Shown here piece after piece: positions 31,706-60,950 of a stretch of 64,000 bases of DNA. How positions within the stretch are numbered: position 1 is the first letter of the stretch; the number at the start of each line of letters is the position of its first letter. A program made the translations under genes and the position numbers. The DNA is from an uncultured Acidimicrobiales bacterium (GTDB lineage Bacteria > Actinomycetota > Acidimicrobiia > Acidimicrobiales > SHLQ01). The stretch lies in contig CAZLWE010000005.1 in NCBI GenBank assembly GCA_964562985.1, positions 3,241 to 67,240 on the forward strand, read 5' to 3'. Under the pieces are notes generated by a model. It was not told the origin of the DNA. It saw only the letters and a program-made list of their open reading frames with translations, and made no database searches.

Positions 31706-31714
31706 ATCGTGAGT

Positions 31715-32716: not shown

Positions 32717-32719
32717 TGA

Positions 32720-34107: not shown

Positions 34108-34108
34108 C

Positions 34109-34832: not shown

Positions 34833-34922
34833 TTTTCCACACCCAGTTGGCGTTGACCGCAAAGCCGCGCGAGGGTTGCAAGATCCGTTGCTTTCCACAC
34901 CTGTGGAGAGTGCTGTGGAAAG
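34833..34922. other. DnaA-box cluster upstream of dnaA (oriC left part / dnaA autoregulation)
   Basis: TTTTCCACA 34833, CTTTCCACA 34891, TGTGGAGAG 34902, TGTGGAAAG 34914. Confidence 0.75.
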
Positions 34923-34926
34923 AGGG

Positions 34927-36363: not shown

Positions 36364-36383
36364 CGCGACTGTTCGCGCGGAAA

Positions 36384-36610
36384 GTGTTCACAGGCAGTGG
36401 AAAACATGGGGATAACTTCACTATCGCCTGGTCACAAGCATGTGTGCAGCCAACGTCAAACTGTGGAGCTCGCGCAAGTCATCCACCGCGCGGATGTTCG
36501 ATCGACTCTTTTCTGTGGACTCGGTGGACAAACACTGAACGCGAAATCGTTCATTTTCCAGTCAAAAACGACTATCGTCCACAATCCACACGCCTATTGC
36601 TTCCTACTAC
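36384..36610. other. oriC (dnaA-dnaN intergenic): DnaA boxes plus putative DnaA-trio unwinding site
   Basis: TGGGGATAA 36407, TGTGGACTC 36514, GGTGGACAA 36523, TCGTCCACA 36575, CAATCCACA 36582, followed by CGC-CTATTGCTTCCTACTAC. Confidence 0.8.
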
Positions 36611-36646
36611 CGAATCCAATCCAACTCGATGGAGAAATGTGGACCG

Positions 36647-40223: not shown

Positions 40224-40384
40224 GGGCACGGCCTTTCGTGATTTATGTGTGTCGTGACTAATACGAGTTTCACGCGGAGGGGTTTTTGCCGCCTGATACG
40301 AAAGGCTCGTCATCACTGGGCTGAAAGGGCTACGCGCCCGCACGTCAACTCCGCACGGCAACGACACACTTCTAAGCTGGAGCT

Positions 40385-42084: not shown

Positions 42085-42113
42085 GGGAATAGATTTCGCA
42101 TAGTGAAAGTTGA
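42085..42113 (+). promoter_or_regulatory. SigH/SigR-type ECF promoter of the dnaK operon
   Basis: GGGAAT-N18-GTTGA. Confidence 0.75.
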
Positions 42114-42129
42114 GTGGATCTGACTAAGG
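42109..42129. promoter_or_regulatory. HAIR (HspR operator), distal dnaK copy
   Basis: GTTGAGT-N7-ACTAAGG against the consensus CTTGAGT-N7-ACTCAAG. Confidence 0.6.
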
Positions 42130-42205: not shown

Positions 42206-42226
42206 CTTGAGCGCTGTCCACGCAAG
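42206..42226. promoter_or_regulatory. HAIR (HspR operator), proximal dnaK copy
   Basis: CTTGAGC-N7-ACGCAAG (2 mismatches), flanked by A/T. Confidence 0.75.
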
Positions 42227-46172: not shown

Positions 46173-47564
46173 CTAGGCGCCCTTGAGGAACTTGGATATG
46201 GCGTAGGCAACTTTTGCCTCGCGATCGCTTGCTTCTTCTCGGTCATCTGCCGTAGCAAGAATTGCGCGGCTGCTCCGGACTCCGAGCCATCGGAAGGGTT
46301 CAGGCTCCCAAGAGCGGGCCTTGTGCCCGACCCACGGGAGCGATGTTCGCTCTGTCGATTCACCGCGAATGAGTTCAGCCATGGTTCGACCGGCGAGGTT
46401 TGCGGCGGCGACGCCTTCGCCGACGTAGCCACCAAGCACACCGACGCCACTCGACCGATCGAAGCGCAAGCCCGGCACCCAGTCGCGAGGAATGCCGAGC
46501 ACCCCGCCCCATCGGTGGGTGAATTGGGTGTTGCCGAGGACGGGGAGCATGTCGATGAGTGTCTCGCGCAGAAGTGCGTGTGACGGGCCGTGCGTTTCGG
46601 CGTGCGGGCTGATCGCTGAACCCCACAGGTAGGGCACGCCGCGGCCGCCGAATGCGAGCCGGTTGTCAGCGGTTCGCTGGCCGTAGATCACCATGAAGCG
46701 GTCGTCGGAGAACGTTGGTCGGTCGGCGAGGCCGATCTCCTCGAACACTTCATTGGAGAGCGGTTCGGTTGCAACCATGAGCGAATAGACCGGGAGCAGG
46801 GCTCGGCGCTCGCCCGCAAGGTCCCTTGTGTATGCCTCGGTAGCTTGCACCACGACATTGGCTCTGACCACGCCTCGGTTTGTTCGCACCAAGTTGGGTT
46901 CGATCTCGGAAACTGCGGTGTTCTCGACGATCGTCACCCCGGCCGCCTCGACCACATCGGCCAGTCCACGAGTCAGCTTGGCAGGATCGATGGCGGCGCA
47001 ATGCGGAAAGTAGATGCCCGACTTCACGTTGGTGGCGTTGAGGTAGCTGCGAGCGGCGTCGGGTTCGAGCAGTTCACCGTGCGCTCCGTCGGCGATCTCA
47101 CTTCGTTGTCTATTGGCCTGAGGCGTGTTGCGTGCCAGTCGGATCCATCCACCCTTGGCGTAGTCACATTCGATCGCTTCGGCGTCGGCAATGCGGCCGA
47201 TCTCATCGACCGCGTCTTGCACCGCTCGATCGAGGCGGTTGGCGGCGTCCATCGATGACCACTGCGCATACTTCTCCGGGCTGGAGGCGAGTTCACCGAC
47301 CGCCCAACCGCCATTGCGACCCGATGCACCGAATCCGCAGAAGTCCTTCTCGACGACCATTACGCGAAGTGTTGGGTCGGCTCGGATGAGGTAGTAGGCC
47401 GTCCACAGACCGGAGAATCCGCCGCCGACAATGGCCACGTCAACGTCGCCGTCGCCTTGCAGCGCTGGTCGTCGTTCGATCGTCCCGAGGCGATCCAGCC
47501 ACAGAGCCATCGTCGAGGAGTTCTCAAGGAATGCATCTGCGGCGGGCAGCATCGACTTCGACAT
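46173..47564 (-). CDS. FAD-dependent oxidoreductase, PuuB/OrdL-like amine oxidase
   Basis: AIVGGGFSGLWTAYYL, GASGRNGGW, WEPEPFRWLG. Confidence 0.88.
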   Translation of the reverse strand: MSKSMLPAADAFLENSSTMALWLDRLGTIERRPALQGDGDVDVAIVGGGFSGLWTAYYLIRADPTLRVMVVEKDFCGFGASGRNGGWAVGELASSPEKYAQWSSMDAANRLDRAVQDAVDEIGRIADAEAIECDYAKGGWIRLARNTPQANRQRSEIADGAHGELLEPDAARSYLNATNVKSGIYFPHCAAIDPAKLTRGLADVVEAAGVTIVENTAVSEIEPNLVRTNRGVVRANVVVQATEAYTRDLAGERRALLPVYSLMVATEPLSNEVFEEIGLADRPTFSDDRFMVIYGQRTADNRLAFGGRGVPYLWGSAISPHAETHGPSHALLRETLIDMLPVLGNTQFTHRWGGVLGIPRDWVPGLRFDRSSGVGVLGGYVGEGVAAANLAGRTMAELIRGESTERTSLPWVGHKARSWEPEPFRWLGVRSSRAILATADDREEASDREAKVAYAISKFLKGA

Positions 47565-47588
47565 AGTTTGGAAATCTACATGATGGCG

Positions 47589-47599
47589 CTGAATTTCAG
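47589..47599. promoter_or_regulatory. candidate operator palindrome in the divergent oxidoreductase/gabT promoter
   Basis: CTGAA-T-TTCAG in an AT-rich gap of about 108 bp. Confidence 0.3.
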
Positions 47600-47672
47600 A
47601 GAATTTGTTTCCGAAGTGTGCCTAATCCATTGCCAATTCGATTTTCAGCCTCGGGATCACTAGTTTTTGACC

Positions 47673-49016
47673 ATGTCGTCGATTCAACTCAAGACTGCGA
47701 TACCGGGACCTCGAAGCGCGGAGATCGTGGAGCGCCGGCGCGCAGCGATGAGCGCCGGAGCAGCATTTCTGACCGAACTTGCTGTCGAGTCCGCCAATGG
47801 CGCCGTCGTCACCGACGTCGATGGCAACCAGCTTTTGGACTTCGCCGGGGGTATCGGCGTGCTCGCCGCTGGCCACTGTCCTCCAACCGTTGTCGAGGCC
47901 ATCAAGGACCAGGCAGGCGAGTTGCTGCACATCTGCGGCATCGTCGCAACCCATGACTCGATGGTCGACCTGTCCGAAGCACTGAACGCCGCCGCGCCCG
48001 GGGACTTCCCGAAGAAGACACTGCTCATGAACTCTGGTGCCGAAGCAGTGGAGAGCGCAGTCAAGCTCGCTCGTGCCGCCACCGGTCGCGCCGGAATCCT
48101 CGTCTTTGAAGGCGCCTATCACGGGCGCACAAACATGACGATGTCGATGACGAGCAAGTACGGGCTCTTCAAAAAGGGGTTCGGGCCATTCGCGTCGGAG
48201 GTCTACCGGATTCCTTTCCCGAACGTGCTGCGCCGTCCCCCAGGCGCCGACCCCGAGCAGTTCGTTGGCTGGTCGATCCAGAAGCTCCGCGAAGCGTTGA
48301 TCAGTCATGTCGACCCATCGGCAATCGCCGCCATCGTCATCGAACCAGTCCAGGGCGAAGGCGGTTTCATCCCGGCACCAAAGCCATTCCTTGAAGAGAT
48401 TCGAGCGATCTGTGACGAGCACGGAATCGTGATGGTCGCCGACGAAGTCCAAGCGGGCTTTGGTCGCACCGGCAGACTCTTCTCCATCGAGCACTCCGGC
48501 GTTGTTCCGGATCTCATCACGATGGCCAAGTCGATGGGCTCGGGCATGCCGATCTCCGCGGTTGTCGGCCGCGCCGAACTGCTCGACGCCGCACATCCGG
48601 GCGGCATGGGCGGCACCTATAGCGGCAACCCGGTCGCGTGTGTCGCAGCTCTCGAGACCATCAAGTTGATCAATTCGCCCGAATTCTTGGGCCGCGCCGA
48701 AGAGATAGGCATACGACTTCGCGCAGGCCTCGAAGAGCTTCAGGCAAAGCACCCGGGTCGCATCGCCGAGGTCCGCGGTCTCGGCCCGATGCTCGTCATC
48801 GAATTGGTTTCCGACGAAAACCTGACCCCAGACCCACCGCTCACTCAGGCGGTCAACAAGGCCACCTTGGCTCGGGGCCTCATCACGATTCGTGCCGGAT
48901 TGTTCAGCAACTGTGTGAGGTTCCTCCCTCCATTGAACATCACCGATGAACAGCTCGACGAGGCCCTCGCGGTTCTCGATGAAGCGTTCACTGACGCTCT
49001 GGCTGCGACCGCTTGA
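47673..49016 (+). CDS. gabT: class III PLP aminotransferase, 4-aminobutyrate aminotransferase-like
   Basis: DFAGGIG, NSGAEAVE, YHGRT, EPVQGEGG, DEVQAGFGRTG, TMAKS, GGTYSGNP. Confidence 0.88.
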   Translation: MSSIQLKTAIPGPRSAEIVERRRAAMSAGAAFLTELAVESANGAVVTDVDGNQLLDFAGGIGVLAAGHCPPTVVEAIKDQAGELLHICGIVATHDSMVDLSEALNAAAPGDFPKKTLLMNSGAEAVESAVKLARAATGRAGILVFEGAYHGRTNMTMSMTSKYGLFKKGFGPFASEVYRIPFPNVLRRPPGADPEQFVGWSIQKLREALISHVDPSAIAAIVIEPVQGEGGFIPAPKPFLEEIRAICDEHGIVMVADEVQAGFGRTGRLFSIEHSGVVPDLITMAKSMGSGMPISAVVGRAELLDAAHPGGMGGTYSGNPVACVAALETIKLINSPEFLGRAEEIGIRLRAGLEELQAKHPGRIAEVRGLGPMLVIELVSDENLTPDPPLTQAVNKATLARGLITIRAGLFSNCVRFLPPLNITDEQLDEALAVLDEAFTDALAATA

Positions 49017-50107
49017 TGAGCACCCCGATTCGTATACTCGACCTCGCAGGTTCGCCAACCCAGATCGGGTCGCGCCACGGTGAGCTGCACGCGGAAGAGA
49101 TTCGCAAGTACGCCAACGAACGCGTGGATTTGGTCGCTTCGGGGTTGTGGAGCGGTGGCCCGCTCACGCGAACCGAAGTGCTCGATATTGCCGACTCGAT
49201 GCTCGAAGCACACGAGGATTTCGATGCTGCGTTGTTCGAAGAGCAAATAGCAATGGCAACAGCTGCTGGTATCTCGACCGCAGAGGCCGTCATCGCCGGA
49301 GGGTTCACCGACTTCGTCGACACCGTTCGTGCAGTGGTCGGCGGTCCGATCCCAACCGAGGTCATCGAAGACGACTGCACGGCGATGATCGTTCCCGATA
49401 GCCGTGCCTCAGGGCAGGGAATCCTCGGTCAGACCTGGGACATGCACGACAGCGCAACCGAACACGTCGTGCTCTTGCGCATTCGCCCAGACGACGCTCC
49501 CGCGGCGTTGGTGTTCACCACGACGGGATGTCTCGGACAGATCGGTATGAACGAGGCGGGAGTTTGCGTTGGGATCAACAACTTGGTCGGAACCGACGGC
49601 ACCCGTGGAGTGACGTGGCCATCGGTTGTTCGAGCCATGCTCAAGACCGAGACCGCAGCCGAAGCCAAGAGCGTGCTGCTGAGTGCCGATCTTGCTGGCG
49701 CCCACAACTTCTTGGTCCTCGATAAACACGGCGACGGTTACACCGTTGAAGCAATGCCCTCGGCCAGACCGAGCATCGAGCTCACGAATGAGCCGATCGT
49801 GCACACAAACCACACGGTTCTGCCAGAAGCCACCGCTGTGCAGGCCGACAAGGCCCCGGGGTTGATGGACAGCTCTGCCTCGAGGTTTGATACCGCAACC
49901 GCTTTGCTTGCCGATGGTGACATCGATGTCGAGCGAGTGATGGACATAACCCGCGAACCCGAAGCCATTTGTCAGGCGGCGGTCGATCCGTATCACATCG
50001 AGTCCAGCGGAGCGGCAATCATGCGCCCTTCTACAGGCGACTTCTGGGCGTGCTGGGGCCGCCCCATCGACAACGAGTACGAGAGGATCAGCTGGGAGAG
50101 CGAATGA
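49016..50107 (+). CDS. C45-family autoproteolytic Ntn acyltransferase/amidohydrolase
   Basis: G..HGE..AEEI prodomain, DDCTA (Cys nucleophile), GQTWD, GMNEAGV and HTNH motifs. Confidence 0.85.
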   Translation: MSTPIRILDLAGSPTQIGSRHGELHAEEIRKYANERVDLVASGLWSGGPLTRTEVLDIADSMLEAHEDFDAALFEEQIAMATAAGISTAEAVIAGGFTDFVDTVRAVVGGPIPTEVIEDDCTAMIVPDSRASGQGILGQTWDMHDSATEHVVLLRIRPDDAPAALVFTTTGCLGQIGMNEAGVCVGINNLVGTDGTRGVTWPSVVRAMLKTETAAEAKSVLLSADLAGAHNFLVLDKHGDGYTVEAMPSARPSIELTNEPIVHTNHTVLPEATAVQADKAPGLMDSSASRFDTATALLADGDIDVERVMDITREPEAICQAAVDPYHIESSGAAIMRPSTGDFWACWGRPIDNEYERISWESE

Positions 50108-50202
50108 GGACTTCTCGACCTACCGACTTCCAGCGCCCCTGCGAGGCCAGCCGCCCATATCACGGCCGCCGGCCTGGCCAGACTGCGCGGTGCGGACAAT
50201 GA
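50104..50202 (+). CDS. putative 32-aa small protein (MRTSRPTDFQRPCEASRPYHGRRPGQTARCGQ)
   Basis: ATGA overlap with both the upstream stop and the downstream start. Confidence 0.35.
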   Translation: MRTSRPTDFQRPCEASRPYHGRRPGQTARCGQ

Positions 50203-50882
50203 CTCTCGTCGCTACGGGACCAACCTCCGGACTGCAATACGTGCGGATTGAGCCGCATATGTGCAAGGCACTTGAAGCTCTTGAGCTTGAAGCGTTCCCG
50301 ACCGCCGATCCGGCCGATCTCTATGACGAGGGCGAATTGTTGCATGTGGCCGCCGAGTTCCCCGAGGGGAGCGTGATCGGATTCGACGGCGACCAGCGCG
50401 ACGAACCCGTAGCTGTGGGCTTGGGAGTACGGGCCCACTTCGACTTTGCGAATCCTCAGCACAACCTGAAGGACTTCTTCCGAGATGCACAGACCGAGTC
50501 CGGCGACGATCCGACCGGCCCCTGGTACTACGGCACCGACATCGTGGTGCGTCCCGATTATCGCCGACGCGGCATCGGGCGCGAACTCTACGACCTGCGC
50601 AAGCAGATCTGCGCCGACTTGAAGCTCGCGGGGATTATCGCGGGCGGTGTCATACCCGGCTATGCCGAGCACAAGGACACGATCTCGGCTGACGAGTACA
50701 TCGAGAAGGTCGTCGCAGGGGAACTGTATGACCCGACCTTGACGTTTCAGCTGGAGAACGGGTTTGAAGCGCCGTGCGCACTCAAGAACTACATGAAAGA
50801 CCCAGCGGTCGACGACTACGCGTCGCTGATCGTGTGGCACAACCCGGACTACTCCGCACCTAGTGATGAGGTGGCCTCATGA
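50199..50882 (+). CDS. GNAT N-acetyltransferase, YkwB-like
   Basis: YYGTDIVVRPDYRRRGIGRELY; IIAGG.IPGY...EYIEKV..GELYDPTLTFQL.NGF. Confidence 0.85.
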   Translation: MTLVATGPTSGLQYVRIEPHMCKALEALELEAFPTADPADLYDEGELLHVAAEFPEGSVIGFDGDQRDEPVAVGLGVRAHFDFANPQHNLKDFFRDAQTESGDDPTGPWYYGTDIVVRPDYRRRGIGRELYDLRKQICADLKLAGIIAGGVIPGYAEHKDTISADEYIEKVVAGELYDPTLTFQLENGFEAPCALKNYMKDPAVDDYASLIVWHNPDYSAPSDEVAS

Positions 50883-51331
50883 CGGCGATCACCATTGATG
50901 AAATCGACCGCGAACTCATCCGGGCGTTACAGGCCGATGGCCGAGCGTCGTACATGGACCTGAGTCGCCTTGTCGGGTTAAGCGATGCAGCGTGTCGCCA
51001 ACGGGTGATGCGCTTGCTCGAAGAAGAAGTCATCGACATCGTTGCGGTCACCGACCCGGTGAAGTTAGGACTTGAGTTCCAGGCATTGCTCGGGATCAGC
51101 GTGAGCTGTGACGTGCGCCAAATCGCCGCCGCAATCGAGGCTTACGACGATGCCGTGTATGTCGTGATGGCAACGGGCCGGTTCGATCTGCTGGTGGAGC
51201 TCGTGAGTCAAGATCGCGAGAGTTTCGTCGGTGTTTCAAACGCAATACGAACAATGGATGGCGTTGCCGGTGTCGAAGTGATGTCGTATCTCGGAATAAC
51301 CAAACAGACCTACGACTGGGGAGTCGGCTAA
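50879..51331 (+). CDS. Lrp/AsnC-family transcriptional regulator
   Basis: IDEIDRELIRALQADGRASY HTH; TGRFDLLVE. Confidence 0.92.
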   Translation: MTAITIDEIDRELIRALQADGRASYMDLSRLVGLSDAACRQRVMRLLEEEVIDIVAVTDPVKLGLEFQALLGISVSCDVRQIAAAIEAYDDAVYVVMATGRFDLLVELVSQDRESFVGVSNAIRTMDGVAGVEVMSYLGITKQTYDWGVG

Positions 51332-51333
51332 GC

Positions 51334-52422
51334 ATGTCCAGCGAACCCACTGCACAAACAGCAGTGACGATCTCGGGGGTTACGAAACGCTTTGGCGACG
51401 TCGTAGCCGTCGACAACATCGATCTCGACATTGCCGATGGCGAGTTCTTCGCAATGCTCGGCCCGTCGGGCTGTGGCAAGACGACGACGCTACGGATGAT
51501 CGCCGGGCTCGAGTTTCCATCTGAGGGCTCGCTCAAGATCTTCGGCGAGGAAGTCGGCACACTCCCGCCGAACAAACGACCGGTCAACACCGTGTTCCAG
51601 AGCTACGCGCTCTTCCCCCATTTGAGCGTGGTCGACAACGTGAGCTTCGGATTGCGGATGACGGGCACCGCCAAGAAGGAAGCCAGCGCCCAGGCTCGGG
51701 AAATGCTGGAGCTCGTGCAGCTCAACGAGATGGTCGAGCGCAAGCCCAATCAACTCTCGGGCGGCCAACAGCAACGTGTTGCCTTGGCTCGGGCGTTGGT
51801 GAACAAGCCAAAGGTGCTGTTGCTCGATGAACCCTTGGGTGCGCTTGACCTGAAGCTGCGCCAAGAGATGCAGACCGAACTTAAGTCGTTGCAACGAGAG
51901 CTTGGTGTGAGCTTTGTTTTCGTCACGCACGACCAAGAGGAAGCCATGGCGATGTCCGATCGCATCGCGGTGATGAACGACGGCCAACTTCTCCAAGTGG
52001 GCCCACCGACAGATATCTACGAACGTCCCGCGAACCGATTTGTTGCCGACTTCATCGGCCAGTCGAATTTGCTCGATGCCACCGTGCAAGACGCGAACTC
52101 CATCGTGTTGACCAACGGAGCCGTGCTCGGAGCTCCAACGATGCACGCGCCGGGCACATCGGTCGCGTTGAGTCTGCGACCCGAAGCCATCAGCATTGGA
52201 GACCGAGGGTCAACGCCGAGTGCAAACGAAACGACCAGCCTCGACGGCACGGTGGCAGAGGTGACCTACCTCGGGCATGCCATCGACTACGTCGTCAAGA
52301 TCGGCTGGATCGATCTTGAAGTGCGCGGCGACGCAACGGCAGGAACGAAACGATTCACCACGGGCGATGAAGTGAGTGTCTGGTGGGATCGAGAATCCGA
52401 TTGGGTGGTGGCGAACTCGTGA
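51334..52422 (+). CDS. polyamine ABC transporter ATPase (PotA-like)
   Basis: GPSGCGKTT, LSGGQQQRVALAR, LLLDEP; TOBE tail. Confidence 0.93.
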   Translation: MSSEPTAQTAVTISGVTKRFGDVVAVDNIDLDIADGEFFAMLGPSGCGKTTTLRMIAGLEFPSEGSLKIFGEEVGTLPPNKRPVNTVFQSYALFPHLSVVDNVSFGLRMTGTAKKEASAQAREMLELVQLNEMVERKPNQLSGGQQQRVALARALVNKPKVLLLDEPLGALDLKLRQEMQTELKSLQRELGVSFVFVTHDQEEAMAMSDRIAVMNDGQLLQVGPPTDIYERPANRFVADFIGQSNLLDATVQDANSIVLTNGAVLGAPTMHAPGTSVALSLRPEAISIGDRGSTPSANETTSLDGTVAEVTYLGHAIDYVVKIGWIDLEVRGDATAGTKRFTTGDEVSVWWDRESDWVVANS

Positions 52423-53294
52423 CCAGCGCCAAGTTCACCGATATGTCCGCCAAGCACGAGCGGAATCGGCGTCGCCAGGGCTTCTTGATGGCGTTGCCCG
52501 CGTACGCGTATTTGGTGATCTTCTTCGCGGTTCCGCTCGGGATTGTCGTGGTGTATTCCTTCGCCACCCGCAACCGATTTGGTGGTACGGATCTCGCCGA
52601 GTGGAACATCGACTCCTATATTCGACTCTTCGATCCGGTCCTGCGGAACATCTTGATCCGGTCCTTCGGGCTTGCGCTTCTCACCACCGTGATCTGTTTG
52701 CTCGTTGCCTACCCGTTCGCGTACTTCCTAGCCACCCGTAGACCAACGGTCCGCAACCTGGCTTTGGTGTTTGTGATGATCCCGTTCTGGTCGAACTTCC
52801 TCGTCCGTAACTACGCCTGGCGAGTACTTCTCGGTAGTGACGGACCGGTCTCGCAGCTCACACAAGCTCTTGGTCTGGGAGAGACGCGTATTCTGTTCAC
52901 TCCAACGGCCATTGTGCTGGGGCTGGTGTACGGGTTCTTGCCCTTCATGATCCTGCCGCTCTATGCGGCGTTGGAACGACTTGATTGGGCATTGCTTGAG
53001 GCGGCGCGAGACCTCGGAGCCACCGGATTCCAGACCCTTCGAAAGGTCACCATTCCTCTATCGATGCCTGGCGTTATCGCCGGATCGATCCTGGTCTTCA
53101 TTCCAAGCTTCGGTGCGTTTGTGACCCCGGAGATCCTGGGCGGCGGGCGCGAAGTATTGCTCGGCAGCTTCATTGTGTCGCAGTTCCTCGAAGCCCGTAA
53201 CTGGCCTGTCGGAGCGGCAACCTCAACTGTCCTGATGGCGGTTATGTTGGTGTGTGCGTTGCTGTACTTCCGCAAGGGCGGGAGGACGTTGTAG
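52419..53294 (+). CDS. polyamine ABC transporter permease (PotB-like)
   Basis: PFWSNFLVRNYAW; EAARDLGA EAA loop. Confidence 0.92.
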   Translation: MTSAKFTDMSAKHERNRRRQGFLMALPAYAYLVIFFAVPLGIVVVYSFATRNRFGGTDLAEWNIDSYIRLFDPVLRNILIRSFGLALLTTVICLLVAYPFAYFLATRRPTVRNLALVFVMIPFWSNFLVRNYAWRVLLGSDGPVSQLTQALGLGETRILFTPTAIVLGLVYGFLPFMILPLYAALERLDWALLEAARDLGATGFQTLRKVTIPLSMPGVIAGSILVFIPSFGAFVTPEILGGGREVLLGSFIVSQFLEARNWPVGAATSTVLMAVMLVCALLYFRKGGRTL

Positions 53295-54118
53295 TGGCGA
53301 GCGCAAAGGAACTCCGGGGAGGCGCCAAGTGGGCGCTCAACCTCAACGCCTGGTTGGTGTACTTCTTCTTTTACGCACCGATCGCGCTGCTCGTCTTCTT
53401 CTCCTTTAGCGATGACAATCTCGTCGGTCGTTGGGGCGGATTCACCACGAGGTGGTACGGCGAGTTCCTCGAGAACGACAATGTGCAGAACGCGCTCAAC
53501 AACTCGATTCGGGTCGCGATCCTGTCGACGGTCATCTCGGTGGTGCTCGGCACCATGGCTGGACTGGCATTGGAGCGCTACCGATTCAAGGGCAGCCAAG
53601 TCTTTGACGCCCTGTTGTATCTACCGGTGATCGTGCCCGACGTGACCATGGCGGTAATGATGCTGATCTTCTTCACCAGCCTCGACGACCTGATCGGTCT
53701 CCAGATCACACGTGGCTTTTCGACCATCACGCTCGCCCACATAGCGTTCAGCATCAGTTTCGTGTCGATCGTCGTTCGCGCTCGGCTCGCTGGCACCAGT
53801 GAGGTGCTGGAGGAAGCCGCCCAGGATCTCTATGCCTCGAAGTGGCAGACCTTCCGCCACATCACCCTGCCCCAGATTCTTCCGGGCATCGTCGGCGGAG
53901 GCTTGTTGGCGTTGACCTTGTCGCTCGACGATGTCGTCATCACCCAGTTCGTAAGCGGGCCTGGCTCAACCACGTTGCCCGTCTTCGTCTTCGGCCTTAT
54001 TCGTCGCGGTGTCTCTCCGCTCATCAACGCCGTTTCGGTAGTGATGCTTGCGGCATCGGTCCTTCTCGTCCTCTTGTCGCTGCTGGCCCAGCGTGCGAGA
54101 GACGGTTCGGTCACATGA
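53294..54118 (+). CDS. polyamine ABC transporter permease (PotC-like)
   Basis: FTTRWY, LEEAAQDL, LSLDDVVIT. Confidence 0.92.
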   Translation: MASAKELRGGAKWALNLNAWLVYFFFYAPIALLVFFSFSDDNLVGRWGGFTTRWYGEFLENDNVQNALNNSIRVAILSTVISVVLGTMAGLALERYRFKGSQVFDALLYLPVIVPDVTMAVMMLIFFTSLDDLIGLQITRGFSTITLAHIAFSISFVSIVVRARLAGTSEVLEEAAQDLYASKWQTFRHITLPQILPGIVGGGLLALTLSLDDVVITQFVSGPGSTTLPVFVFGLIRRGVSPLINAVSVVMLAASVLLVLLSLLAQRARDGSVT

Positions 54119-54170
54119 TCTATCCGATTATCAACAACAAAAGCAAAGCACATCAACCTGGGAGGGAATT

Positions 54171-55334
54171 GTGAAATCAAGAAAGAACACGCGGCTAATA
54201 GCTGCGTTCTTAGCAATATCGGTCATCGCCGCAGCATGTGGCGGAGGCGACGAAGTTGCCAGCGACGCTGGTAGCGATGGCGCTGCGGAGAGCAGCGATG
54301 GTGTTCAGACCGTCTCTGCGTCTGAATGCACCGCAGGACAAGTCGATGGCGACCTCGCCATCTTCAACTGGACCGAGTACATCGATCCGCAACTCCTCGT
54401 CGACTTCTCCGAAGAATTCGGCGTCAATGTCACCGAGGACAACTACGACTCGAACGAGGCGATGCAGCCAATCATCAACGCTGGTGGTTCGGGCTTCGAC
54501 TTCATCGTGCCTTCCGACTACATGGTCGGCATCATGATCGATGCAGGAAACCTGCAACCGCTCAACCGCGATGCAATCCCAAATCTTGCGAACCTCGCTC
54601 CTGATTTTGCTGAAGGCCTGCCCTTCGATCCAGGCGCCGAGTTCAGCGCTCCATACCAGTGGGGAACCACCGGTCTTGGCGTGGATATCTCGGTTGTCGG
54701 CGAAGATTTCCCGCGGACGTGGGGTCTGATCTTCGATCCGGAAATCGCCGCAGAGTACGGCCTCGAAGGCCAATTCTCGACGCTGTTGAACGATCCTCGT
54801 GAGACCTTGGGCGCTGCGCTCAAGTTCCTCGGCTTCTCGCTCAACACCACCGACCCAGACGAACTTCAACAGGCTGAAGAACTGATCGCTTCGACCCTCG
54901 ACCGCATTGCTGCGTTCGAGTCGGATCAGTACGACGAGCTTCTCGTCCAGGGTGAAGCTGCAGTGACCCACGGTTACAGCGGCAACTTCCTCTTCCAGTT
55001 CCTCGATGCAGAGAACCCAGAGAACTTCACCTACTTCGTTCCTGAAGAGGGCGGCACGCGCTGGATCGACAACATGGCAATTCCATTTGACGCTCCAAAC
55101 CCCTGCACGGCGCACACCTTCATCAACTTCCTGCTCGACGCCGAGCGTGGTGCACAGTTGACGAACTGGAACCTGTACGCCAGCCCGAACGAGGCAGCTA
55201 CCCCGTTCATCGATCAAGAAGTACTCGACGATCCAATCGTTTACCCACTAGACGAATCGAACCTCGAAGAGATCGAAGACACCGGCGACTTCGAAATCGA
55301 ATTCAGCGACGCATTCACCGCAGCACGCGGCTAA
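54171..55334 (+). CDS. polyamine ABC transporter substrate-binding lipoprotein (PotD-like)
   Basis: Lipobox AAAC; FNWTEYID, YDSNE, VPSDY, PYQWGTTG, WIDNMAIP. Confidence 0.92.
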   Translation: MKSRKNTRLIAAFLAISVIAAACGGGDEVASDAGSDGAAESSDGVQTVSASECTAGQVDGDLAIFNWTEYIDPQLLVDFSEEFGVNVTEDNYDSNEAMQPIINAGGSGFDFIVPSDYMVGIMIDAGNLQPLNRDAIPNLANLAPDFAEGLPFDPGAEFSAPYQWGTTGLGVDISVVGEDFPRTWGLIFDPEIAAEYGLEGQFSTLLNDPRETLGAALKFLGFSLNTTDPDELQQAEELIASTLDRIAAFESDQYDELLVQGEAAVTHGYSGNFLFQFLDAENPENFTYFVPEEGGTRWIDNMAIPFDAPNPCTAHTFINFLLDAERGAQLTNWNLYASPNEAATPFIDQEVLDDPIVYPLDESNLEEIEDTGDFEIEFSDAFTAARG

Positions 55335-55362
55335 CGACTAGCTGAAGCAATTCGCCACCTAA

Positions 55363-55400
55363 GGACCCCCGGAGCAACGCTCCGGGGGTCCTGGTGTTTT
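55363..55400. terminator. intrinsic terminator after potD (probably bidirectional)
   Basis: GGACCCCCGGAGC-AAC-GCTCCGGGGGTCC, a perfect 13-bp stem followed by GGTGTTTTT. Confidence 0.85.
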
Positions 55401-55615: not shown

Positions 55616-56503
55616 TTAGCGACTGATGACGGCTTCGAGGTCGTCAACCTCTACGTCGAACACGGCCACTTCGGAGTCGGTGGCGTAGGAAAGCTCCCAG
55701 ACGGCGGCGCCAAAGGGAAGCCAATCGAAATCCCAGACGTATTCAGCGGTCATTCGGTACGTACCACTGGCGGGCTGTTCCCAGTAGGTGTGGCTACAGC
55801 CCGGGTTCGACGCTCCGGGAGACCAGGTGGACAGCTCCGCGATCGTGCACGAGAAGATGCCTGAGCCGTCGCCCGGATTGATATTGATGCGAACCAAACG
55901 GGCCCGAACGCCAACGGTTACCTGCCCTGCGGAGGCGTATTCTGCTGGGGTAATGGTGGGCCCCGGCTGATCGATCCACGTTTCGACACCGGTAATTTGC
56001 CTACCGTCAGGACTCAAGGTGAGCGGCCAAGAATAGATCGGCACGTCCTCCTGATCTCGAATATCGATTTCGGTCAGGACACCGCCTACTGGTGCGCCGG
56101 GGATGTACTGAATGACCCCGAAGTCCGCAACGGAGCCAGTGTCGTCAAGGCACTGTCGGGCGTAGTGTGTGCCGGGTACGAGCTGGGGGCCCGTCGTATC
56201 CTGGATGAAATCGTCTCCCTGGCGTGCCATGCCCCTGGCGTCGGTGTATTGCTGGGCGAAGTAGCAGGCATATATCGGGCCATTGTTTGCGACGACCCCT
56301 GGGCCAGACACGGGAACGATCTGTACTTGATCGGAAGCCCAAACGACCCCCGGGCCAGCAGTGCCACCGCTCTGTTGGGCATGAACGACTGCGCCATCGG
56401 CAGATACCACAAGGAGAGCAGTAATCAGCGCGAAAAGCCACGGTCTACGCCATCTGTGATCTCCTGGTCGCCGCTTGCCCACGAATGGAAGTTTGACACA
56501 CAT
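55616..56503 (-). CDS. secreted Cys-containing protein with a C-terminal PKD/Ig-like domain
   Basis: Signal peptide; NPGDGSG..SC...GCSHTY...Y.MTAE.VW...V.V.DLEAVI. Confidence 0.7.
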   Translation of the reverse strand: MCVKLPFVGKRRPGDHRWRRPWLFALITALLVVSADGAVVHAQQSGGTAGPGVVWASDQVQIVPVSGPGVVANNGPIYACYFAQQYTDARGMARQGDDFIQDTTGPQLVPGTHYARQCLDDTGSVADFGVIQYIPGAPVGGVLTEIDIRDQEDVPIYSWPLTLSPDGRQITGVETWIDQPGPTITPAEYASAGQVTVGVRARLVRININPGDGSGIFSCTIAELSTWSPGASNPGCSHTYWEQPASGTYRMTAEYVWDFDWLPFGAAVWELSYATDSEVAVFDVEVDDLEAVISR

Positions 56504-56534: not shown

Positions 56535-56562
56535 GGGAATAAAGAACTACAAGAGAAGTTGA
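56535..56562 (+). promoter_or_regulatory. SigH/SigR-type ECF promoter of clpB
   Basis: GGGAAT-N17-GTTGA. Confidence 0.65.
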
Positions 56563-56580
56563 GTTATCTGGACTCAACTT
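56556..56580. promoter_or_regulatory. HAIR (HspR operator) upstream of clpB
   Basis: AAGTTGAGT-N7-ACTCAACTT, with perfect 9-bp arms. Confidence 0.88.
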
Positions 56581-59270: not shown

Positions 59271-60362
59271 ATGAGTTCCTTGTTGAAACATCAATCGAAG
59301 CGAGCAGCGGGAGGGTTCCTTACCGCAGTGCTGCTGGCCTCGGTATTGAGTGTCGCCGCGGTCTCGGCGCAGACGAGCTCCGGCTCCAGTTGTTCCGGCG
59401 ATTTCGTCCGTGACATCGAGGGCATCCAATTCATCGTTGGCGGTGTCACCACGGCAGACCTCGCGCTGGCTGCCCCAATTCCTGCGGGCACCTACGACCT
59501 CAACGCCGCTTCACGCGACGAACACAATGGTCGAGAGTCCCTAGCCCCTCAGCCCCAAGAGCAGTGGGTCGTTGAGTTCCTCGATAGCAATGGCAACGTC
59601 CTCGCCACCTCTCAACCGACGGCGGATCTGGCGGACAACACGGCTGCGGCGACCTGGGATGGCTCGATCGGCTCCGTCACGCTTGCTGCTGACGCAGTGT
59701 CCGCACGAGCTGTTCACGCAGCGCCAACGTCATCGAGTGCAAACTCGGTGTTTCCTGTCTGCCTCGGTGCAACCCTCAATGCACCTGTCGCTGTCGCCGA
59801 GGACCCAGCCGACGATGAGGTCGCTCGAAGCGTTGGTGGCGACGAGGACCCAGTGACATCGTCAATCACCCTCGACTATGACTCCGATGCTGAGGCCACT
59901 TCCTCGGCTGCAGTCATCTGCGACAACAGCGCCAACGTAGAGGCTGGAGACCAGATCGACATCGTCGTAGACGATATTGAACTCGGCAGCGAGTGCGTCG
60001 TGGGCTACCCAGAGAACCTCAGTTGCACAGTCGTTGTCGATCCCGCCCCGAGCAATGTTGGTGAACGTGCTGGCGAAGTCATCATTGGATTCCCTGCTGA
60101 TGCTCCGTTGTCGGTATTCGTCGACATCGACTGCACGGACCCAGAGCTCGCAGCGGCGCCGGTGGTAACGACCGTTGCACCTGAACCAGCCGCTCCGGCA
60201 GTGACTACGACCGCAGCGCCTGCTCCCGTAACCACCACGACGGTGGCGTCCGCTGTAGCAGCAGCCACGGCAACGCCAACCACTGTTGTCTCCTCGACGC
60301 AGAACGCACCGGCCGCACCCGCCGCTCAACCACGAGTCGGTACCCCAGCCTTTACCGGCTAG
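59271..60362 (+). CDS. secreted acidic protein with Cys pairs, an A/P/T-rich tail and terminal PAFTG
   Basis: Signal peptide ending VSA; tail ...APAAQPRVGTPAFTG*. Confidence 0.8.
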   Translation: MSSLLKHQSKRAAGGFLTAVLLASVLSVAAVSAQTSSGSSCSGDFVRDIEGIQFIVGGVTTADLALAAPIPAGTYDLNAASRDEHNGRESLAPQPQEQWVVEFLDSNGNVLATSQPTADLADNTAAATWDGSIGSVTLAADAVSARAVHAAPTSSSANSVFPVCLGATLNAPVAVAEDPADDEVARSVGGDEDPVTSSITLDYDSDAEATSSAAVICDNSANVEAGDQIDIVVDDIELGSECVVGYPENLSCTVVVDPAPSNVGERAGEVIIGFPADAPLSVFVDIDCTDPELAAAPVVTTVAPEPAAPAVTTTAAPAPVTTTTVASAVAAATATPTTVVSSTQNAPAAPAAQPRVGTPAFTG

Positions 60363-60369
60363 CCGATTC

Positions 60370-60882
60370 TTATTCTGGAAGTTGCTCGGGCCCGTCACTG
60401 GGTCCGAGCTTCTTCGCGTACCAGCGCTGCGCGTAGGGGTTGTCGTTGTAGGCAGCGACGCTGAGGTAGCCCCGGCTGGTGTACATAGCGATCGCCTCGT
60501 GGAGCACGGAGTTGGTGTCGAGATACACCGTGTGGGCCTCGAAGGCGTGGCCAACATCTTCGAGATATCGCAGTGTCGCGGCACCAACGCCTCTCCCACG
60601 CCAGGCGGGGTCGACCCACATTCGCTTGATCTCAGCCACCTGTGACTCGAGCAGCTGAATCCCTCCACAGGAGACCACCTGGTCATTCACGAATCCAAGA
60701 ATGAATCGTCCCTTGGGTTCGCGAAACTGGTCTGCTCCGTGGGTCAACGCATCTCCCGGATCGAAGCCATTGGTGAAACGAGTGGCGAGTTCGGCGAAGT
60801 AGGCGGTCATCGCATCTACTGCTTCTTGGCTCTGCGGATCTACCGCAGCAAATATGACAGAGGTTTCGGGTTTGTTGCCCAC
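60370..60882 (-). CDS. GNAT N-acetyltransferase; start approximate
   Basis: [18 protein letters not shown]; [14 protein letters not shown]...GY...YNDNPYA. Confidence 0.88.
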
Positions 60883-60950
60883 GGTGTTCGACCCTATCCG
60901 TCCCGATAAAGTCAATCGGTTCTGATTTTCTGAATGGAAGGACACCACCT

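What the first reader, a model, noticed from the sequence alone, without database searches (positions are those of the whole stretch)
46173..55334. Polyamine cluster with a GNAT plus C45 amidohydrolase pair: possible acyl-on/acyl-off catabolic route
Seen: a PuuB-like FAD oxidase divergent from a tightly coupled operon of gabT, C45, GNAT, Lrp and potABCD. No glutamine-synthetase-like ligase, PuuD-type hydrolase or aldehyde dehydrogenase is in the cluster. Known: Puu/GlnA3 pathways protect polyamines by gamma-glutamylation and later remove the group; C45 enzymes (isopenicillin N acyltransferase, Drosophila Tan) cleave N-acyl amides. From memory, this GNAT subtype (ELYDPxLTFQLxNGF) often occurs fused to a nitrilase-fold amidase. 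Inference: the GNAT acylates a diamine, the oxidase oxidises the free end, C45 deacylates it and GabT finishes, with C45 replacing the usual hydrolase partner.
Basis: partly seen in the sequence, partly recalled or inferred. Interest (0 to 1): 0.72.

Follow-up and report, generated by a model that had tools for sequence, protein, structure and literature searches.

The report
Polyamine operon with acylate-oxidise-deacylate enzymes
A marine actinobacterium carries a polyamine-uptake operon whose three uncharacterised enzymes (an unusual acyltransferase, an amine oxidase and an amide-cleaving enzyme) stay together, or are fused, across many species, which points to an undescribed bacterial route that breaks down polyamines by first putting a protecting acyl group on them.

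Summary
At 46173-55334 a PuuB-like FAD amine oxidase faces an eight-gene operon (GabT-like aminotransferase, C45, GNAT, Lrp/AsnC, PotABCD) that ends at a strong terminator. The 64-kb window has no GS-like ligase, PuuD-like hydrolase, aldehyde dehydrogenase or agmatinase.

The module recurs in related genomes. In 51 species-level Acidimicrobiia loci, within 10 kb of the GNAT:
- oxidase: 49
- C45: 39
- Pot transporter: 34
- class-III aminotransferase: 27
- bona fide agmatinase: 24

Gene order varies. C45::GNAT single-ORF fusions occur in at least four species.

The binding protein matches only polyamine receptors among solved structures. The GNAT folds like CurA-type GNAT decarboxylases but lacks their His/Thr dyad and keeps the CoA loop.

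Best reading: an N-acylation-dependent polyamine catabolic route (acyl on, oxidise, acyl off, transaminate). It is analogous to the Puu pathway and to SSAT/PAOX but uses different enzymes.

The acyl donor, the exact substrate, the order of steps and the missing aldehyde dehydrogenase are all unverified. I found no paper describing it.

The parts
46173..47564 (-). FAD-dependent amine oxidase/oxidoreductase (DAO family, PuuB-like), divergent from the operon
   Evidence: PF01266 197 bits. 31% identical to E. coli PuuB, E 2e-37. Best NCBIfam hit TIGR03329 at 211 bits, far below its cut-off of 632.8. Found within 10 kb of the GNAT in 49/51 species loci.
47565..47672 (.). Divergent intergenic region of about 105 bp between the oxidase and the operon; presumed promoter and Lrp-operator region
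   Evidence: Sequence read. No consensus sigma-70 promoter was found, and no significant inverted repeat apart from a 9-nt pair that spans the whole spacer. The regulatory role is inferred.
47667..49016 (+). Class-III (GabT/PuuE-like) omega-amino-acid aminotransferase; the likely ATG start is at 47673
   Evidence: PF00202 409 bits. TIGR00700 501.7 bits against cut-off 506.65. 43% identical to PuuE. A GabT-type gene is in 11/51 related loci; other loci have an AptA-like omega-transaminase in the same position.
49016..50107 (+). C45-family autoproteolytic Ntn cysteine amidohydrolase/acyltransferase; predicted nucleophile Cys121 (nt 49376-49378) after Asp119-Asp120
   Evidence: NF040521 189 bits > 85. 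The Cys aligns with the Cys of the DGC motif in IAT 2X1D, which is the catalytic Cys103 (residue numbering from my knowledge of that structure). The Cys is invariant in 20 homologues. AF2 model pLDDT 88; Foldseek top hit IAT, TM 0.83-0.85, E 3e-21, followed by acid ceramidase, NAAA, bile-salt hydrolases and penicillin V acylase. Its start overlaps the gabT stop.
50199..50882 (+). GNAT-superfamily acyl-CoA-dependent acyltransferase of a distinct CurA-fold subtype (motifs FPEG, WYYGTD, RRRGIG, ELYDPTLTFQLENGF)
   Evidence: PF00583 27.9 > 20.7. No NCBIfam model matches. AF2 pLDDT 92.8. Foldseek top hits are CurA GNAT_L 2REF/2REE (E 7e-12, TM 0.75/0.83), SxtA and GphF decarboxylases. The CurA catalytic residues T355/H389 align with G150/Q184, and both are invariant in A1. 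Fusion partners are listed.
50879..51331 (+). Lrp/AsnC-family transcription regulator, 4-bp overlap with the GNAT gene
   Evidence: PF13404, PF13412 and PF01037. Present in 19/51 related loci, next to the GNAT.
51334..52422 (+). PotA-type polyamine ABC transporter ATPase
   Evidence: TIGR01187 potA 379.4 > 355.6; PF00005 + TOBE_2.
52383..53294 (+). PotB-like permease (the true start may be the ATG near 52443)
   Evidence: Best NCBIfam hit NF007044 PotB, 263 bits, below its equivalog cut-off of 348. PF00528.
53252..54118 (+). PotC-like permease
   Evidence: Best NCBIfam hit NF007047 PotC, 233 bits, below its cut-off of 326. PF00528.
54171..55334 (+). PotD/SpuE-like polyamine-binding lipoprotein (the listed ORF starts at 54048; the likely GTG start is at 54171, before the signal/lipobox ...LAISVIAAAC)
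   Evidence: All 22 PDB matches are polyamine-binding proteins; the best is P. aeruginosa 3TTL, E 2.5e-56. The NWTEYI motif aligns with NWTDYI/NWSDYI of those proteins. The start site and lipobox are read from the translation and are inferred.
55362..55392 (+). Intrinsic terminator closing the operon
   Evidence: 14-bp stem (11 G-C), 3-nt loop, then a T-run, 28 bp after the potD stop.

Best explanation
This is a polyamine uptake-and-catabolism locus. Its core is an undescribed three-enzyme module.

Proposed pathway (every catalytic assignment is inferred; what is shown is the gene content, the conservation, the fusions and the fold and residue features):
1. A PotABCD-type transporter imports a di- or polyamine (putrescine or spermidine; agmatine in relatives that also carry agmatinase).
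2. The GNAT uses an acyl-CoA to acylate one amino group. The acyl group is unknown; acetyl is the default guess.
3. The PuuB-like flavoprotein oxidises the remaining free (or secondary) amine to an aldehyde.
4. An aldehyde dehydrogenase encoded elsewhere makes the N-acyl-omega-amino acid.
5. The C45 Ntn cysteine amidohydrolase removes the acyl group, giving GABA or beta-alanine.
6. The GabT-like transaminase passes the amino group to 2-oxoglutarate.
7. The Lrp/AsnC protein regulates the divergent promoters.

Functionally the module replaces PuuA/PuuB/PuuD of the gamma-glutamylation pathway. It mirrors the eukaryotic SSAT/PAOX route and the N-acetylputrescine-to-GABA route, but with non-orthologous enzymes.
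For: Gene identities.

Operon structure and terminator.

Polyamine specificity of the transporter: potA passes the TIGR01187 cut-off. The binding protein's 22 PDB matches are all polyamine receptors, and it carries the NWTEY motif.

Conservation: 387 GTDB species encode a GNAT relative. In 51 species loci with at least 6 kb of flank on each side, the oxidase is within 10 kb in 49, C45 in 39, Pot in 34, a class-III transaminase in 27, and agmatinase in 24. The agmatinase passes its equivalog cut-off (TIGR01230 245 > 174).

Membership is kept while order changes. Examples are C45-PotABCD-...-DAO-GNAT in L038/L040, and PotDCBA-AsnC-AT | C45-GNAT | DAO in L089.

Flanks differ from the window (L001), so the module moves as a unit.

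Rosetta-stone fusions of this GNAT subtype:
- C45::GNAT: P0202, L010, L042, L044.
- GNAT::CN_hydrolase: P0282, P0283, P0301, P0365.
- GNAT::class-III aminotransferase: P0258.
- Flavin amine oxidase::GNAT: P0251. Its oxidase half is closest to LSD1/2, spermine oxidase, N1-acetylpolyamine oxidase and plant polyamine oxidase.

In L090 a related GNAT sits by a Pot-like transporter, 5 kb from an amine oxidase and a CN_hydrolase. That is a non-homologous amidase in the role of C45.

The C45 model matches IAT, then NAAA and acid ceramidase, which are all N-acyl-amine amidases. The nucleophile Cys is invariant.

The GNAT keeps the CoA-binding R-x-x-G-x-G loop (RRRGIG).

Established knowledge: acyl protection of an amine before oxidation or transamination is the logic of the Puu pathway and of the arginine succinyltransferase pathway. 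Review PMC9397018 states that the fate of acetylspermidine in bacteria is unknown.
Against: - No enzyme of this module has been assayed, and I found no paper on it.
- No aldehyde dehydrogenase is in the window. Only 8 of the 86 loci held (83 non-redundant) have one within 10 kb, so one pathway step has no candidate in the cluster.
- C45 is absent from 12/51 loci. The Poriferisodalis-type loci are just DAO-GNAT-agmatinase-Pot, so deacylation is either done by something else or not always needed.
- A GabT-type gene is in only 11/51 loci.
- The GNAT's nearest structural relatives are decarboxylases that lack acyl-transfer activity (bioRxiv 10.1101/2025.03.07.642089). Sequence similarity to known polyamine N-acetyltransferases is at fold level only.
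- The oxidase is a DAO-family enzyme, not a PAOX-family one, and its substrate cannot be read from sequence.
- The order 'acylate first, oxidise second' is assumed by analogy.
Confidence: 0.5

Rival explanations
1. Puu-type gamma-glutamylation pathway with a replaced hydrolase. A glutamine-synthetase-like ligase (GlnA2/GlnA3 type) encoded elsewhere gamma-glutamylates the polyamine. The PuuB-like oxidase acts on the gamma-glutamyl amine. C45 stands in for PuuD as the gamma-Glu-GABA hydrolase. The GNAT has a side role such as detoxifying excess polyamine.
For: The oxidase is 31% identical to PuuB and the transaminase 43% to PuuE. Actinobacteria use GlnA2/GlnA3 for polyamine glutamylation (PMC8998196 and PMC5403932, listed). 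IAT, the closest solved relative of the C45, cleaves a delta-(L-alpha-aminoadipoyl) amide, which is a homologue of a gamma-glutamyl amide (established knowledge). PuuA-like genes lie 9-10 kb away in L062 and L082, and PuuD-like genes are in L028 and L030.
Against: No GS-like gene is in the window, and only 2/86 loci have one. In L062 the intervening genes are unrelated (P450, CoA-transferase, ACAD). This reading does not explain why the GNAT is the oxidase's near-obligate neighbour (49/51), why C45 and GNAT are repeatedly fused, or why the GNAT is fused to a polyamine-oxidase-type enzyme.
Confidence: 0.15
2. Acetylpolyamine salvage and homeostasis rather than a linear catabolic route. C45 deacylates imported, already acylated polyamines. 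The GNAT buffers excess free polyamine, as SpeG, PaiA and BltD do. The oxidase and transaminase then degrade the free amines independently.
For: Bacterial polyamine acetyltransferases are known mainly as detoxifiers, with no known downstream step (PMC9397018). Acetylpolyamine amidohydrolases exist in bacteria (PMC4784309). The GNAT and C45 activities are formally opposite.
Against: An opposing pair fused into one polypeptide would be a futile cycle unless a step lies between the two reactions. The GNAT's fusions to an oxidase and to a transaminase place it inside the degradative sequence. The tight GNAT-oxidase linkage (49/51) is not expected for a buffer enzyme.
Confidence: 0.12
3. The 'GNAT' is a CurA-type decarboxylase of a malonyl or other beta-carboxy-acyl thioester, not an N-acyltransferase. 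The module processes a carboxylated acyl intermediate.
For: The five best Foldseek hits are CurA GNAT_L, SxtA and GphF decarboxylase domains (E 7e-12 to 4e-10). Ordinary N-acetyltransferases score about 1e-7 or weaker. The only sequence-level PDB hit is CurA, and it includes the C-terminal ELYDP...FQ region.
Against: Every known GNAT decarboxylase has an essential His plus Ser/Thr (bioRxiv 10.1101/2025.03.07.642089). In the alignment, CurA T355 and H389 fall on G150 and Q184. Both are invariant in the close family, and Q184 is near-invariant in the wide family. Caveat: that alignment has E = 0.1 and was not checked by a residue-level structural superposition.
Confidence: 0.03
4. The cluster handles a non-polyamine amine, for example 2-aminoethylphosphonate or another small amine. 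The Pot-like transporter and the DAO enzyme would then belong to the aminophosphonate-type systems they also resemble.
For: The best NCBIfam hit of the oxidase is TIGR03329, 'putative aminophosphonate oxidoreductase' (211 bits). PotA also scores 372 bits on PhnT2.
Against: Both scores are far below their cut-offs (632.8 and 457.7), while potA passes the polyamine subfamily cut-off. The binding protein matches only polyamine receptors. Agmatinase, a polyamine-pathway enzyme, is the most common extra member. None of the nine genes matches a family other than those listed above, so no phosphonate-cleaving enzyme is apparent in the cluster.
Confidence: 0.05

Closest known systems
E. coli Puu (gamma-glutamylation) putrescine utilisation pathway: PuuP, PuuA, PuuB, PuuC, PuuD, PuuE
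   Same: The logic is the same: protect one amino group with an acyl group, oxidise the other end with a DAO-family flavoprotein, remove the protecting group, transaminate GABA. The oxidase is 31% identical to PuuB and the transaminase 43% to PuuE.
   Different: There is no ATP-dependent GS-like ligase, no C26-type PuuD and no PuuC in the window. The 'acyl-on' candidate is an acyl-CoA-dependent GNAT and the 'acyl-off' candidate is a C45 Ntn hydrolase. Uptake is by an ABC system rather than PuuP.
Eukaryotic SSAT/PAOX polyamine back-conversion and the N-acetylputrescine-to-GABA route
   Same: GNAT acetylation followed by flavin-dependent oxidation of the acetylated polyamine, then (in the GABA route) aldehyde oxidation and deacetylation. 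A relative of this GNAT is fused to an oxidase of the spermine oxidase/PAOX/LSD clade.
   Different: The window's oxidase is DAO family (PF01266), not PF01593. The GNAT is only fold-level similar to SSAT, SpeG and PaiA. The deacylase is C45. The route is bacterial, operon-encoded and linked to import.
Acyl-CoA:isopenicillin N acyltransferase (IAT, PDB 2X1C/2X1D) and Drosophila Tan (C45 family)
   Same: Same family by HMM, by fold (TM 0.83-0.85) and by the aligned nucleophilic Cys. Known members cleave or exchange N-acyl groups on amines. Tan hydrolyses beta-alanyl-dopamine and beta-alanyl-histamine (established knowledge).
   Different: About 22% identity. Bacterial, in a polyamine operon, and frequently fused to a GNAT. 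Whether it hydrolyses or transfers is unknown.
CurA GNAT_L / GphF / SxtA GNAT-like decarboxylase domains of polyketide loading modules
   Same: They are the closest solved folds. They share the C-terminal extension that carries the (L/Y)xDPxLxF motif.
   Different: This protein is stand-alone, not in a PKS. The catalytic Thr/His dyad is replaced by Gly/Gln. Its context is amine catabolism.
PotABCD / SpuDEFGH polyamine ABC importers
   Same: Same four-component architecture. PotA passes the subfamily cut-off. The binding protein's best matches are P. aeruginosa 3TTL/3TTK and E. coli PotF and PotD, and it carries the NWTEY motif.
   Different: PotB, PotC and PotD score below the E. coli equivalog cut-offs. 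The binding protein is a Gram-positive-type lipoprotein. Ligand preference is unknown.
Arginine succinyltransferase (AST) pathway
   Same: An acyl-CoA-dependent N-acylation opens a catabolic route that includes a class-III transaminase and ends with a deacylase (established knowledge).
   Different: Different enzymes and substrate. It is cited only as a precedent for the logic.

Membership tests
Puu gamma-glutamylation pathway | PuuA-type glutamine-synthetase-like glutamate-putrescine ligase in the cluster | tested here: not met
   tblastn with E. coli PuuA gives no hit in the window. Hits occur in only 2/86 related loci, 9-10 kb from the GNAT.
Puu gamma-glutamylation pathway | PuuB-type DAO-family oxidase | tested here: met
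   31% identity over 375 aa, E 2e-37. The substrate is unknown.
Puu gamma-glutamylation pathway | PuuC aldehyde dehydrogenase and PuuD (C26) gamma-Glu-GABA hydrolase | tested here: not met
   No hit in the window. PuuC-like genes are in 8/86 loci and PuuD-like genes in 2/86.
Puu gamma-glutamylation pathway | PuuE/GabT GABA aminotransferase | tested here: met
   43% identical to PuuE. TIGR00700 501.7 bits, just under its cut-off of 506.65.
Peptidase C45 (IAT/Tan) autoproteolytic Ntn acyltransferase/hydrolase | Family HMM above the curated cut-off | tested here: met
   NF040521 189.2 > 85; PF03417 71.3 > 23.2.
Peptidase C45 (IAT/Tan) autoproteolytic Ntn acyltransferase/hydrolase | Nucleophilic Cys at the processing site, conserved | tested here: met
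   EDD-C121 aligns with the Cys of the DGC motif in IAT 2X1D, which is Cys103 by my knowledge of that structure. It is invariant in 20 homologues.
Peptidase C45 (IAT/Tan) autoproteolytic Ntn acyltransferase/hydrolase | Ntn alpha-beta-beta-alpha fold like IAT | tested here: met
   AF2 pLDDT 88.4. Foldseek gives IAT at TM 0.83-0.85, E 3e-21.
Peptidase C45 (IAT/Tan) autoproteolytic Ntn acyltransferase/hydrolase | Autoproteolytic maturation and amide hydrolysis or transfer activity | not testable with these tools
   Needs protein expression and assay.
GNAT superfamily acyl-CoA N-acyltransferase | GNAT fold and Pfam match | tested here: met
   PF00583 27.9 > 20.7. AF2 pLDDT 92.8; 372 PDB matches at E <= 1e-3, and the 50 listed are all GNAT-fold proteins.
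GNAT superfamily acyl-CoA N-acyltransferase | CoA pyrophosphate-binding loop (R/Q)-x-x-G-x-(G/A) | tested here: met
   R122-R-R-G-I-G127 is invariant in A1. R122 and G125 are near-invariant across the wide family, fusions included.
CurA-type GNAT decarboxylase subfamily | Closest structural similarity to CurA, GphF and SxtA domains | tested here: met
   These are Foldseek ranks 1-5.
CurA-type GNAT decarboxylase subfamily | Essential His and Ser/Thr catalytic pair (CurA H389 and T355) | tested here: not met
   In the alignment they fall on Q184 and G150, both invariant in A1. The requirement is stated in bioRxiv 10.1101/2025.03.07.642089. The alignment has E = 0.1, so a structural superposition should confirm it.
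PotABCD-type polyamine ABC importer | ATPase in the polyamine subfamily | tested here: met
   TIGR01187 379.4 > 355.6.
PotABCD-type polyamine ABC importer | Binding protein of the PotD/PotF/SpuD/SpuE type with the N-W-(S/T)-(D/E)-Y ligand motif | tested here: met
   All 22 PDB matches at E <= 1e-10 are polyamine-binding proteins. NWTEYI aligns with NWTDYI and NWSDYI. The E. coli equivalog cut-offs are not reached (182 against 636). Ligand binding itself was not tested.
SSAT/PAOX-type acetylpolyamine oxidation | Flavin amine oxidase of the PAOX/SMOX family (PF01593) | tested here: not met
   The window oxidase is PF01266. A PF01593 enzyme of the PAOX/SMOX/LSD clade is, however, fused to a GNAT of this subtype in P0251.

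The most novel reading that the evidence does not exclude
The C45 enzyme is not a simple hydrolase. It is an ArgJ-like transacylase that moves the acyl group from the N-acyl-omega-amino acid product back onto an incoming polyamine. The pathway then runs as an acyl-recycling cycle, and the GNAT only primes or tops it up from acyl-CoA. This would explain why C45 (a family whose founding member is an acyltransferase) and the GNAT are repeatedly fused, and why both deal with thioester or acyl-enzyme chemistry. Nothing here tests it. It is only not excluded.
Probability: 0.12. Interest if true: 0.85.

Novelty: new variant of a known kind. Interest (0 to 1): 0.64.

Why it matters
Five bacterial polyamine utilisation routes are recognised. 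For the 'acetylation pathway', only the first step is known in bacteria, and the fate of the acetylated polyamine is unknown (PMC9397018).

This module offers a concrete and testable candidate for a complete acylation-dependent route. It would use an uncharacterised GNAT subtype with no NCBIfam model and no close solved structure, and it would give a bacterial C45 enzyme a physiological role.

GNAT relatives occur in 387 GTDB species. The 80 best are almost all Acidimicrobiia, many named as marine or sponge-associated. Polyamines are a plausible nitrogen source for such bacteria (my knowledge, not tested here).

The fusion set (amidase, oxidase, transaminase) suggests that the same logic is used more widely, with interchangeable parts.

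Tried and rejected
- CurA-type decarboxylase reading of the GNAT: rejected because the Thr/His dyad is replaced by Gly/Gln.
- Membership in the Puu pathway: rejected for PuuA, PuuC and PuuD.
- Aminophosphonate cluster: the scores are far below cut-offs and the binding protein is polyamine-type.
- Profile search of the PDB with the narrow GNAT alignment A1: only insignificant hits, so the sequence-level link to CurA rests on one E = 0.1 alignment plus the fold search.
- Aldehyde dehydrogenase and GS-like genes 6-10 kb downstream in the Aldehydirespirator-type loci: the intervening genes are P450s, a CoA-transferase and an acyl-CoA dehydrogenase, so I do not count them as part of the module.
- Flanks of the C45-less Poriferisodalis-type locus L043: McrBC, PIN and a transposase, with no substitute amidase identified. 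An MBL-fold gene recurs upstream in 7 loci but is unassigned.
- L088 (Caldilineaceae GNAT): no informative context.
- Rfam over the whole window: no match.
- Promoter scan and inverted-repeat search in the divergent intergenic region: nothing above chance.
- Literature searches for C45 + polyamine, IAT + putrescine, GNAT + carbon-nitrogen hydrolase, and acetylputrescine catabolism: no description of this module.

Full report
**1. What is there**

On the minus strand, 46173-47564 encodes a 463-aa DAO-family FAD enzyme. It is 31% identical to E. coli PuuB over 375 residues (E 2e-37). Its best NCBIfam hit, TIGR03329, is far below its cut-off.

About 105 bp away, on the plus strand, an operon runs as follows:
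- a class-III aminotransferase (47667/47673-49016; GABA-AT equivalog 501.7 bits against cut-off 506.65; 43% identical to PuuE);
- a C45 proenzyme (49016-50107; NF040521 189 > 85);
- a GNAT (50199-50882);
- an Lrp/AsnC regulator (50879-51331);
- potA (TIGR01187 above cut-off), potB and potC;
- a PotD/PotF-like binding protein (54048/54171-55334).

The gabT stop and the C45 start share a base (TGATG). GNAT and Lrp overlap by 4 bp. Lrp and potA are 2 bp apart. Only C45 and GNAT are separated, by about 90 bp. A hairpin with a 14-bp stem (11 G-C pairs) followed by a T-run sits 28 bp after potD.

tblastn with E. coli PuuA, PuuC and PuuD finds nothing in the whole window.

The locus lies between dnaK-grpE-dnaJ-hspR and clpB. 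It is roughly 10-19 kb from dnaA-dnaN.

Names attached to close homologues place the organism in the Acidimicrobiales.

**2. Is the arrangement more than chance?**

A scan of one genome per GTDB species with a GNAT alignment found 387 species with a relative. The best 80 are all Acidimicrobiia, many of them named as marine or sponge-associated, plus one contig binned as Verrucomicrobiales.

I located relatives of each window protein in those loci by tblastn. Among the 51 loci with at least 6 kb on both sides of the GNAT (GNAT identity to the window 53-86%), the counts within 10 kb are:

| Partner of the GNAT | Loci (of 51) |
|---|---|
| Oxidase | 49 |
| C45 | 39 |
| Pot transporter | 34 |
| Any class-III aminotransferase | 27 |
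| of which GabT-type (others AptA-like omega-transaminase) | 11 |
| Lrp | 19 |
| Arginase-family gene | 24 |
| C45 + oxidase | 37 |
| C45 + Pot | 22 |
| C45 + oxidase + Pot + aminotransferase | 13 |

The arginase-family gene passes the agmatinase equivalog cut-off (TIGR01230 245-262 > 174).

Gene order is not fixed. The arrangements seen are:
- DAO | GabT-C45-GNAT-Lrp-(agmatinase)-PotABCD;
- DAO | Lrp-GNAT-agmatinase-Pot;
- C45-PotABCD-...-DAO | GNAT;
- DAO | GNAT-agmatinase-Pot, with no C45;
- in a genome with a more distant GNAT clade, PotDCBA-AsnC-AT | C45-GNAT | DAO (L089).

Flanking genes differ from the window (L001). Conserved membership with changing order and changing flanks is the signature of a functional module.

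The window's version is the one without agmatinase. tblastn finds no agmatinase anywhere in the window.

**3. Fusions**

C45 and GNAT are one reading frame in several cases: P0202/L003 (597 aa, Pfam AAT + Acetyltransf_1), L010 (629 aa), L042 (617 aa) and L044. Two more long cluster representatives, P0145 and P0178, appear.

A profile search of 1.84 billion representatives found 1012 clusters. I scanned the multi-domain ones with Pfam:
- GNAT + CN_hydrolase: P0282, P0283, P0301, P0365.
- GNAT + class-III aminotransferase: P0258.
- Flavin amine oxidase + GNAT: P0251.
- HAD + GNAT: P0271.
- GNAT + PEP-carboxylase: P0339, P0377, P0388. This last one is unexplained.

The oxidase half of P0251 is closest to LSD1/LSD2, spermine oxidase, N1-acetylpolyamine oxidase and plant polyamine oxidase (E 4e-35 to 2e-23).

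All these GNAT domains share the FPEG, YYG-D, R-x-x-G-x-G and Y..V..G...DPTLSFQL.NGF motifs, so they are one subtype.

In L090 a GNAT of the distant clade sits next to a Pot-like transporter and 5 kb from an amine oxidase plus a CN_hydrolase.

So three kinds of partner recur with this GNAT: an amine oxidase, a transaminase and an amidase. The amidase is either C45 or nitrilase-fold.

**4. The individual enzymes**

*GNAT.* It matches no NCBIfam model and has no significant sequence match in the PDB. The AlphaFold model is confident (pLDDT 92.8).

Its best structural matches are the GNAT-like decarboxylase domains of CurA, SxtA and GphF (E 7e-12 to 4e-10, TM up to 0.83). Ordinary N-acetyltransferases, including PaiA, SpeG, EctA and insect polyamine or arylalkylamine acetyltransferases, come in at about 1e-7 to 1e-6.

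Known GNAT decarboxylases need a His and a Ser/Thr, and they lack acyl-transfer activity (bioRxiv 10.1101/2025.03.07.642089). In the only available alignment CurA T355 and H389 fall on G150 and Q184. Both are invariant in the close family.

The CoA-binding loop RRRGIG is kept. I therefore read the protein as an acyl-CoA-dependent transferase that shares the CurA-type fold and C-terminal extension, not as a decarboxylase.

The acyl group cannot be inferred.

*C45.* The model (pLDDT 88.4) superposes on IAT (TM 0.83-0.85, E 3e-21). The next matches are acid ceramidase, NAAA, bile-salt hydrolases, penicillin V acylase and glutaryl-7-ACA acylase. All of these are amidases acting on N-acylated amines.

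Cys121 aligns with the Cys of the DGC motif in IAT, which I take to be the catalytic Cys103 from my knowledge of that structure. It is invariant.

*Binding protein.* All 22 PDB matches at E <= 1e-10 are polyamine receptors. The best is P. aeruginosa 3TTL at 2.5e-56, followed by 3TTK/3TTM, E. coli PotF and PotD. The NWTEYI motif aligns with their NWTDYI/NWSDYI.

From memory, 3TTL/3TTN is the spermidine-preferring SpuE, and Thr at this position goes with spermidine binders. That is a lead, not a test.

**5. Mechanism**

The simplest scheme that uses every recurrent part has six steps:
1. Import a polyamine (agmatine is first cut to putrescine plus urea where agmatinase is present).
2. N-acylate one amino group (GNAT).
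3. Oxidise the other amine (PuuB-like oxidase).
4. Oxidise the aldehyde (an enzyme not in the cluster).
5. Remove the acyl group (C45, or a nitrilase-fold amidase in other lineages).
6. Transaminate the omega-amino acid (GabT-like or omega-transaminase).

The comparative data raise it from a guess to the best-supported hypothesis, and I give it about 0.5. Only the gene content, linkage, fusions, folds and residues are shown. Every catalytic step is inferred.

Its weak points are these:
- No aldehyde dehydrogenase is in the cluster. Only 8 of the 86 loci held at that point (83 non-redundant) have one within 10 kb. A molybdenum hydroxylase pair upstream of the oxidase in 5-6 loci is a possible substitute.
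- C45 is missing from a quarter of the loci.
- The acyl donor, the substrate and the order of steps are unknown.

**6. Rivals**

- A Puu-type gamma-glutamyl route, with C45 as the PuuD substitute and the ligase encoded elsewhere (about 0.15). It does not explain the GNAT linkage and fusions.
- An acetylpolyamine salvage and buffering pair (about 0.12). Fusion of two opposing activities argues against it.
- A non-polyamine amine substrate (about 0.05).
- A true CurA-type decarboxylase (about 0.03).

The most novel reading not excluded is that C45 acts as an ArgJ-like transacylase that recycles the acyl group (about 0.12).

**7. Novelty**

Literature searches found no description of a C45-GNAT polyamine module.

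A 2022 review lists five bacterial polyamine utilisation routes. It states that the fate of acetylspermidine in E. coli is not known (PMC9397018).

The parts belong to known superfamilies, and the logic has precedents in Puu, AST and SSAT/PAOX. I therefore rate it a new variant of a known kind, of fairly high interest, and directly testable.

Noticed in passing
window 42109-42129, 42206-42226, 56558-56578: HAIR-like inverted repeats (CTTGAGT-N7-ACTCAAG, 2-3 mismatches) lie just upstream of dnaK (42295) and clpB (56651). The polyamine locus is wedged between the dnaK-grpE-dnaJ-hspR operon and clpB, which are two parts of the presumed HspR regulon. In L001 the same locus has quite different flanks.
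   Followed up: partly
window 29099-37738: Chromosomal origin region: parB, parA, jag/khpB, yidC on the minus strand, then dnaA (34876-36363) and dnaN (36629-37738) on the plus strand. The cumulative GC-skew minimum is at about 36 kb. The polyamine locus is therefore roughly 10-19 kb from oriC.
   Followed up: partly
related loci, e.g. L011:2282-3265, L043:10618-11673, L005:10965-11939: A bona fide agmatinase (above the NCBIfam equivalog cut-off) sits between GNAT/Lrp and potA in 24/51 related loci. It is absent from this window, which suggests that relatives start from agmatine and this organism starts from putrescine or spermidine.
   Followed up: yes
L059:2146-3849, L039:1968-2981 and 4-5 further loci: A molybdenum-hydroxylase gene pair (MoCoBD_2 plus a CoxS-like 2Fe-2S subunit) lies 5-8 kb upstream of the oxidase in 5-6 loci. 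It is a possible aldehyde oxidoreductase for the pathway step that has no gene in the cluster.
   Followed up: no
P0339, P0388, P0377 (representative proteins): The same GNAT subtype is fused N-terminally to phosphoenolpyruvate carboxylase in some lineages. The polyamine model does not explain this.
   Followed up: no
L005 / L014 (JBLIMK010000095.1): A contig binned as Verrucomicrobiales carries C45-GNAT-agmatinase with 73-75% identity to the Acidimicrobiia proteins. This is probably a mis-binned contig or a recent transfer.
   Followed up: no
window 38157-40367 (-): A 736-aa protein with seven FG-GAP repeats and RTX calcium-binding nonapeptide repeats, likely secreted, lies between dnaN and the phosphoglycerate mutase gene.
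   Followed up: no
window 55616-56503 (-), 59271-60362 (+), 61212-61835 (-); 60370-60948 (-): Three ORFs of 207-363 aa have no Pfam match at E <= 1e-5. A second, ordinary GNAT (PF00583, 57 bits) lies downstream of clpB. It was not examined as part of the module.
   Followed up: no
L043:6449-7537 and six other Poriferisodalis-type loci: In loci that lack C45, an MBL-fold hydrolase and an unannotated protein of about 290 aa recur 2.5-5 kb upstream of the oxidase. Whether they replace C45 is unknown.
   Followed up: partly
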